From an uncultured Candidatus Saccharibacteria bacterium (lineage in GTDB: Bacteria > Patescibacteriota > Dojkabacteria > CAZCSM01), in contig CAZCSM010000008.1 of the NCBI GenBank assembly GCA_964501355.1, positions 761 through 64,760 on the forward strand: DNA of 64,000 nucleotides. Direction: 5' to 3'. Made by a program: the position numbers. The first letter of the stretch is position 1; the number at the start of each line of letters is the position of its first letter. Below are positions 6,001-15,000 of this stretch, piece by piece.

Positions 6001-9000
6001 ACTTTATTCCCAATAATTAATATCAGGGCAGTCATGGGCAGTTTTCCTAACTAAACTAATTTATTTAGCCAAAAAAAAAGGAGGCTTTTCAGCCTCCTTT
6101 TGGTAGTGATAAAACCGATAAGGAAATCCCTTATCGGGCAAAAACATAAAATTAGTTTTCTTTCTTCATATTTTCCCACCATTCTTCGAATGTTTTATTA
6201 GTTGATTCTTCTAATTTATTTGCGATATACCAGTTTTTCATCATGGTCTTTGCTTCACTGATTGCCTGATCAGTATTTGCATTTGGACCAAGTGAAAAAG
6301 CAAGCATTTCTTTAGGTGATAATAAAATATCTCCGCCAACTTTATCCTTCAAAAGCTCAAGATATTTTTGTGCTTCTTTCCATACTTGCTGTGAATCCTG
6401 TTTAGGTTCCTCACCAAAGAAAAAGGAGATAGGTTTATCTAATATTTCAGCGATTCTTTGAAGTTTTTCAAGCGGGATATCACTTGATGATATTTCGTAT
6501 CTACTAATCATCATTCTGGAAATCCCGACCTTTTGAGCTAGTTCCTCTTGAGATAAATTCTTTTCTGTACGAGCCTTTTTTAATTGTTTTCCAACTATTT
6601 CTTTATTCATCTCAATGTTTTTATAAATAGAGTTACTAATTTGTATAGGATTGTATCACCAGATGCACATTAATGTCAACAGTGAAAGTATATGCTACGA
6701 AGGGATGAAACAACAGTTAGATGATTTTCTGATACACGAGACTTGACATTCTGATAACTCATATGTATATTATTGATAACTGTAATGTATCAAACTGCTC
6801 AAGGTGATTATACATAAAGGAAAAACATATGAACTTGAGCAGTCAATTCAAATTTACACAGGTCACCTTAGATGAAGTATTTAGCTTCATCAAGATGAGA
6901 ATTTCACAAGGTGGGTATCAACGGTTTAAAGACTACTCTGACGAACAACTTCTTGCTGTTGCAATGATTTCAAAGCCTCTTATTGAGGCTCATTTAACTA
7001 CAGCAGGGAGATTAGCAATACAGCAATTAGAAGAAAGAAAAATGAAGATAGACAAGGCTACGCTTTCTGAGGAAATCGCCCCCTCAGATGATTCATCTCA
7101 ATGTAAAGCGTAGCCTTTTGTGTTTTAAAAATACAAAAAGAAATATGAAAACTATTGCGGAAAAGTACATACAAAGAATATTGGATGAGATCTTCTTGCA
7201 TGAAGGTTTAGAAAACCCGATTCAGGTTTCAGAATTGATGCAAATTGTTCCGCTAACTGATCGAGAGATTAGAAAAGTTGTTCAGTACTTGATAAATGAG
7301 AGATTTGAGCCCATTGGTTCTAAGTCTAGCCTGCCTGCAGGATTTTTTAAAATTACAGACATTAATGACTATATAGAAGCAGTCTCAAACTTAAATCCAA
7401 GATCTGTAAAAATCGAGGCTAGAGCTTTAAATCTAGCAAAAGCTTGTAGGAAAAAAGGCATTGAAATCCCAGAGGTTCATATCTCTAAATATAAAAACAG
7501 TTCAAAAATAATTGTTCATATACATAACTCAGTAGTTTTTATTGGTAATGAAAAAGATGTCATTAGATAAAAGATTAGAAAAACTAGTTTTACTAGATAG
7601 TCCTTATTTGAAGGATGTTGATTTTCGTGTTGCATCAGTGATTTTGATTCTCCTCAAATATGAAAAAGTAAACCAATATTTTGATCTTTTAATTGATGAC
7701 TTAATTTGGGGTATAGATAAATTTATATCTGATGGAAAAAGAATAGTTATTTCGGAAGGATTTGGGTTTGATGAAGTTAAGATAATTAATTCAATAAAAA
7801 GACTAACGAAAAAAAGGATTATTGGTTCTCAAAGAATAGATCGAAATATATTTAGGGTTTTCTGAGGGTCTTTGAGACAGGGCTACTTTTAACCTTGAGC
7901 AGTTGAGTAGCCCTGTCTCAAGTGAAAACTTTATTTAATATTTTGATTTACATCTATGAGAAGTAAATATTTTAAGTTCCAACTGCTCAAGAAGATTGTA
8001 AAGAGAGTTAAGAAAGTAGGAATACTGAAGAAATTCATAATTCTGAATTTTATACTCTCAATCTCTGGTATATATAATCTTTTGCTCTTACAACCAGTTT
8101 ATGCTGATCCATTTTATCCGTCAGCTGATGCTGATAATTGTAACTTTGCACAAGCAACTTCTGTTTCGTACAGAAGCTTGCCAAATAATTGTTCAGGGGC
8201 AAATTGTGTTTCGTATAATGCTTCTCAAGTTTATGGTGAAAGTGGTGCATATCCAGAAAATCACAACTTTCATGATGTAGCTGATGTGACATATCCAGAT
8301 GCCCATAGATATCGAGGGGTTGCTGACAGAGTTGCAGTCCCTCCTAATACACGAATTGATGTCGGTTACTATATTCATAATTATTCAGGTCATTCAATTA
8401 CAGCAGATCATGCTTACCTTTTTGTATCAAGAAGCAATACTGCAAATGGTGATTGGGGACGACTTGGTTCTGGTGGTTCTGTAAGTGGAGTCAATTATCT
8501 GTATATGGGCAACTGGCAGTCAAGGAATGGAAGATATGTAAGTCTTGGTAACTTAGGTACATATCCTGCAAATCCTTTAAGTAATCCTCCAAGTGGAAGA
8601 ACAATTTACTCATTCACAACTATACAGCCAATTCAGATTCAATCAAGAATTGCCACGCCAGAGTTTATTGGAGGCGGAAATCTTAGAATCAGATATGATT
8701 TAACTGTTAGAAATGTCTCTTCCTATGATCTCGCAAATATCAGGGTTGCTGATGATCTTCCAAGTGGTGAATCTTTTGATCAAACAGTAACTTTCAGTTC
8801 AGGTCAAACAAGAACTTTTACATATTACGCAAATATGGGTTCAAGCTATCCTACAAATATTACAAACTCTCCTGCTAGAATTTCAGATCCAAACAGGCAT
8901 AAAGAAGAAGGTGCGATTGCAGGCTCAAGTATCTATGATCACAATCCCGAAACTAGAACAATAATAGTTAATAGAACTGATTCTGGTGCTCCTTCTGGTT

Positions 9001-12000: not shown

Positions 12001-15000
12001 AAACAGGTCAATCAATTATACCTCCTCTTGTAATTGGTATAGGGCTTATCTCAATCGGAACTGGTATCTCAATCTTACTTATTAAACGCAAAAAGAAACA
12101 AAAATGATAACGCTAATTGTATTTGTAAGCCTATTTGTTGTGTACGTCTCGATTATCTTTTTACGAGGTGTACACAGGGAAAAAAGAGATAAAAAGCTCA
12201 AGAAAGTCGATGAGGCTTTACTTGAGGAAGAAACTAAATAATTTATTAACAAGTTTAATATGTCTAACAAAATAGAAAAACTCAAAAAAGTTACCTTATC
12301 AATTGCCACAGTTGCCATGTCGCCGATTATATTTGCCCAAACAGTTTATGCACAAAGTGATCCAAGTGCAGAGATTTCAGCAATTATTGAGAGAGTCATC
12401 ACAATTGCAACAAGGGTTGGTTCAGGAGTTCTAATTCTATTCATTATAAAAGATGCTTTTGAACTACTGAATGGCGGTGATAATCCAATGATGAGAGGAA
12501 AAATAGCCAGAGATATTTTCTTTTTGATAATTGCAGCAATCTTTCTGTTTAAGCCAGATTTTATTTTGGAAGCTATCAAATATATTGCCAATGTTTAACT
12601 TCTTAAATTCATACAAAACAATTGAAAAGCAGGCTTTTGAAATGAAAGACAAAATTCAAAAGGCAGGTAAGGAAGAAAAGAACCTTATAAACAAGCTTTT
12701 TATCTGGGGAATTATCTTAACAATTGTTATTGGGATTCTCCAAATAGTCTTCTTTCTTGTATATCAACCAAAGATACAAGACCCAGTGTTTCAAGAGCCA
12801 ACAGTAATTGAACAAAAAATTGAATATCAAGTTCCAGATGATTCTGGTGTACTTGATTTACCAGAAGAAGAGCTTGGCAGAGGTCAATCAATCCCAAATC
12901 CTATTGATATTCTCAATCCGTTTTCTAGCTTTCAGGAATCAATTGTTGATGCAATTTCAGAAATAATTATGCAAGGATTGGAACTGTTTGATGATTATGT
13001 TGCATTTACTCCAAATATTGCAAAAAGTGATGGACAAATTGTTGATGCTAGAGGAAACAATATCCCTATCCATGTAAACAAATTCTACAATGCTACTCAA
13101 AGTGTAGCTTGGTTACTTCTTCCACTAATTATTGTACTTACAGGAACTTATGTAGTTCTTGAAGGTTCATTCAAAGGGATTCAATTACTTAAAGAAGTTG
13201 CTAAAAAGGTACTTCTCTTTGTTGTTGGTATGGTTGCTATGAGATTTTTATTTGCAAACGCTATTGATCTTGTAAACGCTTTAAATAGGTTTGTATTAAA
13301 TGCCCTTGTTGGTAGTGGAGATACATTGTCAGAGTCACTTCTAACTGCTCTTGGTATGCAAATTGTTGATTCTAAGCTTGAGTTATCAATTCAAGGAACA
13401 CTAAATATCTTTGCTGAAATAATACTTTGGATTGGACTATTCTTTTTACTAGTAACAATACTTTTTCAATTTATCATTCGCTTTTTCCACTTACTTTTAC
13501 ATGTAATCATATTTCCTATTGTGCTTGTAATCGGGTTACTTCCGAGTGGTGGACAGTTTTTCAAACAGTACATTGAAGAAACTCTCAGAACTTTGTTTAT
13601 GCAACCAATATTCCTTATTGGCATTGGAATAACACTTGAAATTATTCAAAGTGTAAACGAGCCTGTACCTAAAGTTATACTTGGTTTAGGTTCGCTAGCC
13701 TTTCTAAATATTATTCCTTCAATAATAAATCGATTCTCTGGAATCCTTTGGGGAATTGGTGGATCTGTAGCAGGTGGTATTGTTGCAGGAGCGACTGTAG
13801 GACAAGCTAGAAGAATGAAAGAAAGTGTTGTAGCAGGAGCAAGTGGTGGAAAATCAACCTCGATAAGAAATCTAGCAGGTAAAGCACTCGGTGAAGCTAT
13901 CGTTTCTAAATTGCCAATTGGTGGTACTGCAAAGAAAGCCCTTGATTCTGGTATTGCACTTAAGTCAGGAGGAACTGCTGCAAAAGCAGGTTCTTTTAAC
14001 GCAGTTGTCAGTTCAGGTGGGTCTGCTACAAAAGCATTTTCTCAGCTTGGCATGAAGCCTTTGAGTGGAAGAACTTTAAAGGATATTCAGACACCGAAAA
14101 CTTTATACTCAACTTCTCCTAATATTGAAAAAATCAAAGATCTTTCTGTTAAAGACTCAAATATTGTTAGTAACGGATATTCACAAAACAACTTCACTTC
14201 TTCACTTGGTGAGCCTTTAACTGAAAAACCAGCCACAATTCATCAAATGATGGATTTATCTCAGGTAAGTTTTTCAAATCCCAATACCAATCAGTATTTA
14301 TCTGATGTGATTACGAACAAACCTACAGAAATTGCGCAAGGAAGAACTTTCGATTCAGGCAACGATAAACATTGGAGTCACCTATCTGAGTGGTACTCAA
14401 AGAATCAAGTTCTTGATGGAAAGATGAATCAAAATCAGATTCAACAGTATGTCCAAAATCCTCAAAACAGGATGAATATTATAAATACAGCCTCAGATAA
14501 GGGGTATTTTCAGACACAAGGAATTAATACAGTGAAGGTTCAGGACAAAGTATCTGGTCAGAAGCCTGTTACTAAATATTTTCAGATTAAACCAATAAAT
14601 AAAGATGCAGGAAATAGTACCGCCAAAACTAAATAAAGATACAGGATTCTTCTCGATTATCCTAAATAGAAGGAACTTTCTGTTACTTCTTGGCTTTGGA
14701 TTCTCTTTTATTGTCTGGACTACTAATCTTTTCAATACGGTAGATCAAAAGATACTTGGAGAGCTATTTATTGGACTATTACTAATTCCTTTTCTCTTTG
14801 ATGCATATGGTAGACCTCTCCACATTTTCATTATAGACGCCTTCAATTTTCTTTTTACTACTAAAAGACAAAGGATTGTTATTGGCAAAGACATTTCAGA
14901 AGGAATAGTAATAGTTTCAGATGTTCAGTACTCAAGGGTATTTAGAATAGAACCGATCAACCTTTCAATGAGTAGTGAAGAAGAAATCTTTGCTTTCAAA

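What the first reader, a model, noticed from the sequence alone, without database searches (positions are those of the whole stretch)
7956..12107. Giant LAQTG-anchored DUF11 adhesin encoded with its own sortase inside the conjugative element
The 1383-aa protein has a signal peptide, at least six DUF11/CARDB-like repeats, a Cna-B-like domain and a C-terminal LAQTG plus hydrophobic helix plus KRKKKQK sorting signal. A sortase-like gene (23591..24133: TM anchor, His, IIYTC, Arg) lies in the same element just after the coupling-protein region. The layout recalls PrgB-type aggregation substances in Gram-positive conjugation. The LAQTG variant motif suggests a dedicated sortase-substrate pair.
Basis: partly seen in the sequence, partly recalled or inferred. 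Interest (0 to 1): 0.55.

Follow-up and report, generated by a model that had tools for sequence, protein, structure and literature searches.

The report
Mobile-element adhesin with its own sortase
A 40-kb conjugative element integrated in a tRNA-Pro gene of an ultra-small Dojkabacteria (CPR) bacterium carries a large wall-anchored surface protein ending in LAQTG and also a compact sortase to attach it, a familiar Gram-positive arrangement that I did not find described for this lineage.

Summary
ORF 7956..12107 encodes a 1383-aa secreted protein. It has an unassigned head of about 335 aa, at least six DUF11 repeats and one SdrD_B (CnaB-type) domain. Its sorting signal is LAQTG, a hydrophobic stretch and KRKKKQK. 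ORF 23591..24133 is a real sortase: His99, Cys162 and Arg170 are invariant, the AlphaFold2 model has pLDDT 90, and all top 50 Foldseek PDB matches are sortases. It reaches no class A-F model cut-off.

Both genes lie inside an element of about 39.7 kb. A 20-bp exact repeat of the tRNA-Pro 3' end bounds it (3991-4010 and 43693-43712). The element carries a serine recombinase, VirB2/B6/B4-like genes, a coupling protein and a Replic_Relax relaxase.

All 12 related Patescibacteria loci that cover the position have the adhesin with [LI]A[QDE]TG. The sortase follows the relaxase in all 11 loci that reach that point.

The likeliest function is element-encoded wall anchoring of a contact adhesin for mating. 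That function is inferred, and so is exclusivity of the pair. LAxTG is not a new motif: it is the actinobacterial class E signal. This sortase lacks the class E tyrosine. The protein resembles PrgB by position only, not by homology.

Verdict: new variant of a known kind, moderate interest.

The parts
3936..4012 (+). tRNA-Pro (UGG), the integration target. Its 3' end carries the attL core.
   Evidence: ARAGORN and Rfam tRNA at 66 bits.
3991..4010 (+). attL copy of the 20-bp direct repeat TCAAGTCTAGTCACCCCGAC.
   Evidence: Exact repeat with only 2 matches in the window and 0 expected by chance.
3997..5568 (-). Large serine recombinase, the candidate integrase.
   Evidence: Pfam Resolvase 1e-30, Recombinase 6e-18 and Zn_ribbon_recom.
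7956..12107 (+). Surface adhesin of 1383 aa. Signal peptide aa 1-50, head aa 51 to about 385, DUF11 stalk aa about 386-1215, SdrD_B aa 1223-1297, sorting signal aa 1347-1383.
11994..12104 (+). Cell-wall sorting signal: LAQTG (11994-12008), hydrophobic segment, KRKKKQK tail.
   Evidence: [LI]A[QDE]TG is conserved in 12 related loci and 3 further homologues.
12260..12598 (+). VirB2-like T4SS pilin candidate.
   Evidence: Pfam T4SS_pilin at 18.5 bits, below the 26.6 cut-off. Conserved in all related loci.
12531..14636 (+). VirB6/TrbL-like channel protein.
   Evidence: Pfam TrbL at 19.8 bits, below cut-off. Conserved position.
15360..17204 (+). VirB4-like ATPase.
   Evidence: Pfam P-loop_TraG 4e-19 and AAA_10 1e-14.
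18042..19109 (+). M23 peptidase, the candidate cell-wall hydrolase of the transfer apparatus.
   Evidence: Pfam Peptidase_M23 3e-10.
19917..22511 (+). Coupling-protein-like ATPase.
   Evidence: Pfam TrwB_AAD_bind at 22.2 bits (cut-off 20.5) and DUF87.
22731..23621 (+). Replic_Relax family protein, the candidate relaxase. It overlaps the sortase gene by 31 nt.
   Evidence: Pfam PF13814 5e-13; overlap.
23591..24133 (+). Membrane-anchored sortase of 180 aa. Membrane helix about aa 5-27, His99 (23885-23887), Cys162 (24074-24076), Arg170 (24098-24100).
43693..43712 (+). attR copy of the 20-bp repeat, the far end of the element.
   Evidence: The housekeeping Obg GTPase gene lies just beyond at 45125-46075.

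Best explanation
The window holds an integrative conjugative element of about 39.7 kb (3991..43712) of a Candidatus Dojkabacteria (Patescibacteria/CPR) bacterium. Its conserved backbone includes a self-contained surface-display pair.

The proposed steps are as follows. The 1383-aa protein is exported through Sec, with the signal peptide cut after VYA50. It is held in the membrane by its C-terminal hydrophobic segment and basic tail. The element's own 180-aa sortase, anchored by an N-terminal helix, cuts it between Thr and Gly of LAQTG using Cys162, His99 and Arg170. The sortase then transfers it to the peptidoglycan precursor. The stalk of DUF11 and SdrD_B domains holds a fast-evolving N-terminal head away from the cell. 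That head binds another cell's surface and so starts or stabilises the contact that the neighbouring type IV secretion genes need for DNA transfer. This is the role PrgB-type adhesins play for Gram-positive plasmids.

Shown here: the gene structures, the sortase fold and triad, the element borders, and the conserved linkage. Inferred: cleavage at LAQTG by this particular sortase, and the role in mating contact.
For: Adhesin architecture and sorting signal.

Sortase:
- His99, Cys162 and Arg170 are invariant in 28 homologues.
- A profile of the family hits only sortases in the PDB, best 2kw8 at E 4.6e-4.
- The AlphaFold2 model has pLDDT 90 and pTM 0.81.
- All top 50 Foldseek PDB hits are sortases, 118 hits have E<=1e-3 and the best is 4.7e-8.

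Element:
- A tRNA-Pro 3' end repeat of 20 bp bounds it, with 0 expected by chance.
- It carries a serine recombinase.
- It carries VirB2/B6/B4-like genes, an M23 peptidase, a coupling protein and a Replic_Relax protein, in overlapping same-strand genes.

Linkage:
- All 12 related loci that cover the position (L001-L012) have the adhesin in the same place, ending in [LI]A[QDE]TG, a hydrophobic stretch and a basic tail. This holds although adhesin identity falls to 33-36%.
- The sortase follows the relaxase in 9 of 9 loci that cover both genes.
- It does so too in two more distant members, P0048/L015 and P0063/L018.
- No other ORF in those loci carries a sorting signal.

Head versus stalk: the head is the least conserved part, at 30-50% identity where the stalk is 66-86%, and the repeat number varies. 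That is expected of a ligand-binding tip.

Literature: Gram-positive conjugation systems use sortase-anchored adhesins in place of pili (PMC12857230).
Against: - No experiment bears on this.
- The window's sortase scores below Pfam's Sortase cut-off on its own (19.3 against 26.6 bits) and reaches no class model.
- The adhesin and sortase genes are 11.5 kb apart and are probably not co-transcribed. A 219-nt gap precedes the relaxase-sortase pair.
- CPR genomes often have a chromosomal sortase (PMC6744442) that could do the anchoring.
- Chromosomal relatives of this sortase sit near proteins that also end in non-proline signals, LEYTG and TAPTG. The motif may therefore be typical of the lineage rather than specific to the element.
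- The element also encodes a VirB2-like pilin that could make contact without the adhesin.
- In cultured Patescibacteria the T4SS serves growth on the host cell rather than conjugation (PMC12857230, PMC12102498).
- The head domain could not be modelled (pLDDT 56.5) and no ligand can be proposed.
Confidence: 0.6

Rival explanations
1. The pair is real, but the adhesin is a host-attachment factor rather than a mating adhesin. It would fasten the ultra-small epibiont to the bacterium it lives on. The element carries it as a fitness trait, or uses its T4SS on the host cell.
For: Cultured Patescibacteria are obligate epibionts, and their T4SS is needed for growth on host cells (PMC12857230, PMC12102498). 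The head domain evolves fast, as expected of a host-range determinant. The element carries other accessory traits.
Against: The adhesin sits in the conserved backbone directly upstream of the transfer genes in every relative, whereas true cargo varies between relatives. This element has a relaxase, a coupling protein, a recombinase and att repeats, which most CPR T4SS loci lack (PMC12102498).
Confidence: 0.22
2. The adhesin is anchored by a chromosomal housekeeping sortase. The element's sortase is redundant or has a different, unidentified substrate.
For: A sortase family is present in more than half of CPR genomes and in nearly all Microgenomates (PMC6744442). Chromosomal relatives of this sortase lie next to proteins with non-proline signals. 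The two genes are 11.5 kb apart.
Against: Sortase and adhesin are retained together in 9 of 9 loci that cover both, at down to 35% sortase identity. The adhesin is the only protein with a sorting signal in the element and its relatives. A redundant gene would be expected to be lost from a compact backbone.
Confidence: 0.12
3. The sortase is a pilus polymerase in the class C manner and joins adhesin molecules into a covalent fibre.
For: The best NCBIfam hit among family members is class C, far below cut-off. Class C structures lead the Foldseek list. An isopeptide-domain model hits the stalk (TIGR04226, 38 bits).
Against: The adhesin has no YPK-type pilin motif. The sortase has no DP[FWY] lid motif and no C-terminal membrane anchor. 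There is only one substrate gene. The class C model scores 18 bits against a 160-bit cut-off.
Confidence: 0.04
4. The C-terminus is only a membrane anchor and the LAQTG is incidental. The 180-aa protein is an inactive sortase relic.
For: There is no biochemical evidence. The LPXTG_anchor model scores only at its cut-off.
Against: A-x-T-G is invariant across adhesins that are only 33-36% identical overall. The catalytic His, Cys and Arg are invariant across 28 sortase homologues down to 44% identity. Both patterns imply purifying selection on function.
Confidence: 0.02

Closest known systems
PrgB (aggregation substance) of Enterococcus faecalis plasmid pCF10, and other LPxTG adhesins of Gram-positive conjugative elements
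   Same: A large secreted protein with a C-terminal sortase signal, encoded at the head of a Gram-positive-type T4SS gene cluster. Its presumed job is donor-recipient contact (PMC12857230).
   Different: There is no homology. Pfam finds DUF11 and SdrD_B domains and no polymer-adhesin (GbpC, antigen I/II) domain. The signal has Ala where PrgB has Pro. In the account I read, such adhesins are anchored in a sortase-dependent manner and no plasmid-borne sortase is mentioned (PMC12857230); that pCF10 has none is from my own knowledge. This element brings its own. The host is a CPR bacterium.
Class E sortases (Streptomyces coelicolor SrtE1/SrtE2, Corynebacterium) and their LAxTG substrates
   Same: The substrate motif L-A-x-T-G is the same (PMC5148588), and the sortase fold and triad are shared.
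   Different: The class E model is not reached; the best hit among 28 members is E 7.8e-4 against a 160-bit cut-off. The predicted beta3/beta4 loop (residues 88-92) has no conserved tyrosine. The enzyme is much shorter and lacks a long cytoplasmic tail. It is encoded on a mobile element, not as a housekeeping gene.
Class A housekeeping sortases (S. pyogenes, S. agalactiae and B. anthracis SrtA)
   Same: N-terminal membrane anchor, a single catalytic domain, and a [T/I]LxTC-like active-site motif (IIYTC). Best structural superpositions are with S. pyogenes SrtA at rmsd 3.3-3.5 A over about 138 columns. Best PDB sequence hit is B. anthracis SrtA.
   Different: Sequence identity is 15-22%. No class model passes. 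The predicted substrate has Ala, not Pro.
TIE adhesin (gene 34) of Bacillus subtilis plasmid pLS20
   Same: A plasmid-encoded multidomain surface adhesin needed for efficient conjugation, especially in liquid (PMC8092201).
   Different: The pLS20 adhesin has no sorting signal, is independent of sortase, and the plasmid has no sortase gene (PMC8092201). No thioester domain could be shown in the protein studied here.
Patescibacteria T4SS loci described by Quinonero-Coronel et al. 2025
   Same: Monoderm-type T4SS with VirB4, VirB6, a coupling protein and a VirB2-like pilin (PMC12102498).
   Different: That survey reports that most such loci lack a relaxase and that no PrgB-like adhesin was detected. 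It does not mention a sortase or DUF11 in its text or held supplements. Here a relaxase candidate, a recombinase, att repeats, an adhesin and a sortase are all present.

Membership tests
Sortase superfamily (PF04203) | Eight-stranded beta-barrel sortase fold | tested here: met
   AlphaFold2 pLDDT 90. All top 50 Foldseek PDB hits are sortases, with probability 1.00 and best E 4.7e-8.
Sortase superfamily (PF04203) | Catalytic His, Cys (in a TLxTC-like motif) and Arg | tested here: met
   H99, C162 (IIYTC) and R170 are invariant in 28 homologues.
Sortase superfamily (PF04203) | Score at or above Pfam's gathering cut-off | tested here: inconclusive
   The window protein scores 19.3 bits against a cut-off of 26.6. 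Many homologues at 74-83% identity carry a precomputed PF04203 hit. The family profile hits only sortases in the PDB.
Sortase superfamily (PF04203) | Transpeptidase activity on a sorting signal | not testable with these tools
   Needs a peptide cleavage assay.
Class E sortase | NCBIfam NF033747 at or above 160 bits | tested here: not met
   No hit for the window protein at E<=1. Nine of 28 members hit weakly, best E 7.8e-4.
Class E sortase | Conserved tyrosine in the beta3/beta4 loop that reads the Ala at P3 (PMC5148588) | tested here: not met
   The predicted loop, residues 88-92 (DSDNL), has Tyr in only a few members. Loop assignment rests on the predicted structure.
Class E sortase | LAxTG substrates | tested here: met
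   The linked substrate ends in [LI]A[QDE]TG in all relatives. Actual cleavage was not tested.
Class C (pilus) sortase | Lid with DP[FWY] motif, C-terminal membrane anchor, and a substrate with a YPK pilin motif | tested here: not met
   The sortase has no DP[FWY]. The protein ends 10 residues after Arg170. The adhesin has no YPK or PKN motif. The class C model scores 18 bits against 160.
LPXTG-type cell-wall sorting signal (TIGR01167) | Pentapeptide, then a hydrophobic segment, then a basic tail at the extreme C-terminus | tested here: met
   LAQTG, 24 hydrophobic residues and KRKKKQK. TIGR01167 scores 15.9 bits, equal to its cut-off.
LPXTG-type cell-wall sorting signal (TIGR01167) | Proline at position 2 | tested here: not met
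   Alanine in the window protein and in all 15 relatives seen.
PrgB / aggregation substance family | Polymer adhesin domain (GbpC, antigen I/II type) | tested here: not met
   The Pfam scan of the whole protein and of nine slices finds only DUF11-type and SdrD_B domains.
PrgB / aggregation substance family | Promotes donor-recipient aggregation | not testable with these tools
   Needs mating assays.
DUF11 repeat surface proteins (PF01345, TIGR01451) | Tandem DUF11 repeats above cut-off | tested here: met
   PF01345 at 177.5 bits with 6 stretches. TIGR01451 at 118.6 bits with 5 stretches.
Integrative conjugative element | Recombinase, flanking direct repeats at a tRNA gene, relaxase, coupling protein and VirB4 | tested here: met
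   Excision and transfer were not tested.

The most novel reading that the evidence does not exclude
A family of tRNA-integrating conjugative elements of CPR bacteria carries a portable, self-sufficient surface-display module. It consists of a compact sortase outside classes A-F, and this sortase has reached [LI]AxTG specificity independently of the actinobacterial class E enzymes, without their specificity tyrosine. It is paired exclusively with one DUF11 adhesin whose variable head sets which cells the element can mate with. This would be the first adhesin-dependent mating system, and the first element-borne sortase-substrate pair, described in Patescibacteria. It would also give an orthogonal small sortase for LAxTG ligation.
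Probability: 0.3. Interest if true: 0.62.

Novelty: new variant of a known kind. Interest (0 to 1): 0.48.

Why it matters
- **Gap in current accounts.** Conjugation in Patescibacteria is close to unexplored. The recent survey concluded that most of their T4SS loci lack relaxases and that no PrgB-like adhesins exist (PMC12102498). This element family shows a complete-looking transfer module with defined borders, an adhesin and the enzyme to anchor it.
- **A test system.** It is a concrete candidate for studying gene flow between ultra-small bacteria. Its cargo looks like resistance genes in the window (APH-like kinase, beta-lactamase family, MFS, ABC-F) and copper resistance in a relative.
- **Substrate recognition.** An unclassified 180-aa sortase linked to Ala-containing signals offers a second, independent case for how sortases read LAxTG.
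- **Limit.** The general principle, a sortase-anchored adhesin on a Gram-positive-type conjugative element, is already well known.

Tried and rejected
- **Sequence search of the sortase alone against the PDB.** Nothing significant. The family profile was needed.
- **Sortase class assignment.** No NCBIfam class model passes for the window protein, for 28 family members, or for 10 second-tier relatives.
- **Thioester-domain idea for the adhesin head** (invariant Cys62 and Gln224 in TIQP). The AlphaFold2 model from only 7 sequences was poor, at pLDDT 56.5. Its Foldseek PDB hits had TM-scores near 0.2 to unrelated beta-sandwich proteins. The idea is neither supported nor excluded, and the head fold stays unassigned.
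- **More adhesin homologues.** Searches with the head and the C-terminal region gave only 6 and 3 hits. That is too few for a motif census beyond the element family.
- **More loci.** The viral-contig scan found none.
- **Pilus-polymerase reading.** Rejected for lack of a pilin motif, lid and C-terminal anchor.
- **Terminator-like hairpin at 23624-23652, inside the sortase ORF.** Treated as chance, since 6 sites were found against 9.4 expected.
- **Whether the host chromosome has another sortase.** This could not be checked because only 64 kb is available. No second sortase lies in the window.

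
Full report
**Observation**

ORF 7956..12107 (+) encodes 1383 aa. The N-terminus reads as a Sec signal peptide: a long basic stretch, the hydrophobic FIILNFILSISGIYNLLLL, and then VYA|D after residue 50. Pfam gives DUF11 at E 1.2e-52 with six stretches. DUF7619, DUF7927 and CARDB overlie the same repeats, and an SdrD_B (CnaB-type) domain lies at residues 1223-1297. Two further DUF11-like units fall below threshold. Residues 51 to about 240 and 300-385 match nothing. NCBIfam adds the DUF11 repeat model, an isopeptide-domain model at 38 bits, and LPXTG_anchor at exactly its 15.9-bit cut-off. 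LAQTG is at aa 1347-1351, followed by 24 hydrophobic residues and KRKKKQK. No other ORF in the window ends this way.

ORF 23591..24133 (+) encodes 180 aa with an N-terminal membrane helix, His99, IIYTC162 and Arg170. The only corrections are that the sortase follows the relaxase, not the coupling protein, and that the protein is large rather than giant.

**Is the 180-aa protein a sortase?**

On its own it is weak. Pfam Sortase scores 19.3 bits against a 26.6 cut-off, and nothing in the PDB is significant. It has 48 close homologues, several named sortase in Candidatus Dojkabacteria records. In an alignment of 28 of them, His99, Cys162 and Arg170 are invariant. A profile of that alignment hits only sortases in the PDB, with B. 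anthracis SrtA best at E 4.6e-4. An AlphaFold2 model has pLDDT 90 and pTM 0.81. All top 50 Foldseek PDB matches are sortases of classes A and C, with best E 4.7e-8 and 118 hits at E<=1e-3.

No class can be assigned. No NCBIfam class model comes near its cut-off for this protein, for the 28 family members, or for ten more distant relatives. An exhaustive profile search of 1.84 billion representatives finds a tight family of 12 clusters at E<1e-30. There is then a gap, followed by 297 clusters at E<1e-10 and 899 at E<1e-3.

**Context**

The surrounding genes are:
- three tRNA genes and a large serine recombinase;
- small HTH regulators;
- the adhesin;
- a VirB2-like pilin candidate, VirB6-like and VirB4-like proteins, an Ig-domain protein and an M23 peptidase;
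- an HTH_36 protein, a coupling-protein-like ATPase, and a Replic_Relax protein whose gene overlaps the sortase gene by 31 nt.

A 20-bp exact repeat, TCAAGTCTAGTCACCCCGAC, occurs at 3991-4010, which is the 3' end of tRNA-Pro. It occurs again at 43693-43712 and nowhere else, with none expected by chance. The housekeeping Obg gene lies just beyond. The element is therefore about 39.7 kb and has classic tRNA-site borders. Both genes of the finding lie inside it.

**Related loci**

A scan of one genome per species with the VirB4 protein returned 11 loci. They are labelled Dojkabacteria, Patescibacteria or, for third-party assemblies, Saccharibacteria. One is the complete genome CP129477.1. A metagenome scan added L012 and two short fragments.

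All 12 loci that cover the adhesin position have the adhesin gene there, ending in LAQTG, IAQTG, IADTG or IAETG plus a hydrophobic segment and a basic tail. This holds although overall adhesin identity falls to 33-36%. Three further C-terminal homologues read IAQTG, IAQTG and LAQTG.

The sortase follows the relaxase in all nine loci that extend far enough. It does so too in two more distant family members looked up separately, P0048/L015 and P0063/L018. Loci without it are simply cut short by contig ends.

Downstream of the sortase the content changes between relatives:
- resistance-like genes in the window;
- ArdA and others in L015;
- copper-resistance genes in L018.

The sortase is thus the last gene of the conserved backbone. 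Within the adhesin the head (aa 1-400) is the least conserved part, and the number of stalk repeats varies.

**Mechanism**

The best-supported reading has four steps:
1. The adhesin is exported through Sec.
2. It is held in the membrane by its C-terminal segment.
3. The element's sortase cleaves it at LAQT|G.
4. It is transferred to the wall, where the stalk presents a variable head for cell-cell contact during transfer.

Fold, triad, signal, borders and linkage are shown here. Cleavage by this enzyme and the mating role are inferred from what is established for sortases and for adhesins of Gram-positive conjugation systems (PMC12857230).

The main rival is that the adhesin serves attachment of the epibiont to its host bacterium. 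In cultured Patescibacteria the T4SS is needed for epibiotic growth (PMC12857230, PMC12102498). Against that rival, this element has the relaxase, coupling protein, recombinase and att sites that most CPR T4SS loci lack. The adhesin also belongs to the invariant backbone, not to the variable cargo.

A second rival is that a chromosomal sortase does the anchoring. Sortases are common in CPR (PMC6744442). Chromosomal relatives of this sortase sit near proteins ending in LEYTG (L016) and TAPTG (L021), each with an anchor and a basic tail. Non-proline signals may therefore be usual for this clade.

A pilus-polymerase role is unlikely. The adhesin has no pilin motif, and the sortase has no lid and no C-terminal anchor.

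**Comparison with known systems**

- **LAxTG** is the established class E sorting signal of Actinobacteria (PMC5148588), so the motif is not new. This enzyme nevertheless fails the class E model, and its predicted beta3/beta4 loop has no conserved tyrosine. If it reads LAxTG, it does so in another way.
- **PrgB.** The protein works like PrgB by position and presumed role, but it is not a member of that family. It has no polymer-adhesin domain.
- **pLS20.** The pLS20 conjugation adhesin is independent of sortase, and that plasmid has no sortase (PMC8092201).
- **Patescibacteria survey.** The survey of Patescibacteria T4SS reports no PrgB-like adhesins and few relaxases. It does not mention sortase or DUF11 in its text or held supplements. 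I found no paper that describes this pairing in CPR.

**Verdict**

It is a new variant of a known kind: a sortase-anchored adhesin on a Gram-positive-type conjugative element. The variant features are the CPR lineage, an unclassified 180-aa sortase carried by the element itself, and an Ala-type signal. Interest is moderate. The principle is familiar, but the host lineage, the defined element borders and the possibly independent route to LAxTG recognition make it a useful test case.

Noticed in passing
window 23591-24133: The window's sortase gene is a mosaic. Residues 1-125 are 90-94% identical to one subgroup (P0004, P0010), but residues 126-176 are only 53-59% identical to it. The pattern is reversed for a second subgroup (P0023-P0029: 56-62% and 80-88%). 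A recombination breakpoint therefore lies inside the gene, at the junction of backbone and cargo. The neighbouring relaxase is 97% identical to L002, while the sortase is only 80% identical.
   Followed up: partly
window 24146-28825: A block of about 4.7 kb is absent from all related loci. It encodes an APH-like kinase, a beta-lactamase-family protein, an MFS transporter and an ABC-F ATPase. It looks like resistance cargo inserted between the sortase and the conserved ORF 29813-30193.
   Followed up: partly
window 31058-43239: The distal half of the element carries a type III restriction-modification pair (N6_N4 methylase and ResIII helicase), an SMC-like ATPase, a HARE-HTH protein, a dual-specificity phosphatase, DUF2130 and DUF2779. 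DSPc and DUF2779 recur in the distant relative L015.
   Followed up: partly
L001 (JAHKLX010000081.1): A contig carrying a 99%-identical copy of this element is deposited as 'Candidatus Micrarchaeota archaeon'. This is most likely a binning error, not transfer to an archaeon.
   Followed up: no
window 29752-29791 and 30655-30694: Two 40-nt copies (88% identical) of a hairpin-containing sequence, CAAATCCTTTGAGGGTGGCAAGGTTAAACCCTCACAATTT, flank the conserved 126-aa ORF 29813-30193. That ORF has no Pfam match.
   Followed up: no
L016 14006-17602 and L021 4501-5175: Chromosomal sortases that are second-tier relatives of the element's sortase lie near proteins ending in ...MLEYTG and ...LTAPTGD, each followed by a hydrophobic segment and a basic tail. 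This hints that this sortase clade generally uses sorting signals without proline.
   Followed up: partly
window 22731-23621: The only relaxase candidate is a Replic_Relax (PF13814) protein. It is conserved immediately upstream of the sortase in all relatives. This is relevant to the reported scarcity of relaxases near Patescibacteria T4SS genes.
   Followed up: partly
window 8088-9155 (adhesin aa 45-400): The head domain has an invariant Cys62 and an invariant T-I-Q-P (Gln224) among 7 homologues. That recalls thioester adhesin domains, but the structure model was too poor to test the idea.
   Followed up: partly
L018 10735-19255: A related Dojkabacteria element carries a copper and heavy-metal resistance cluster directly after its sortase: two P-type ATPases, HMA proteins, a CsoR-like repressor and a cupredoxin.
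   Followed up: no
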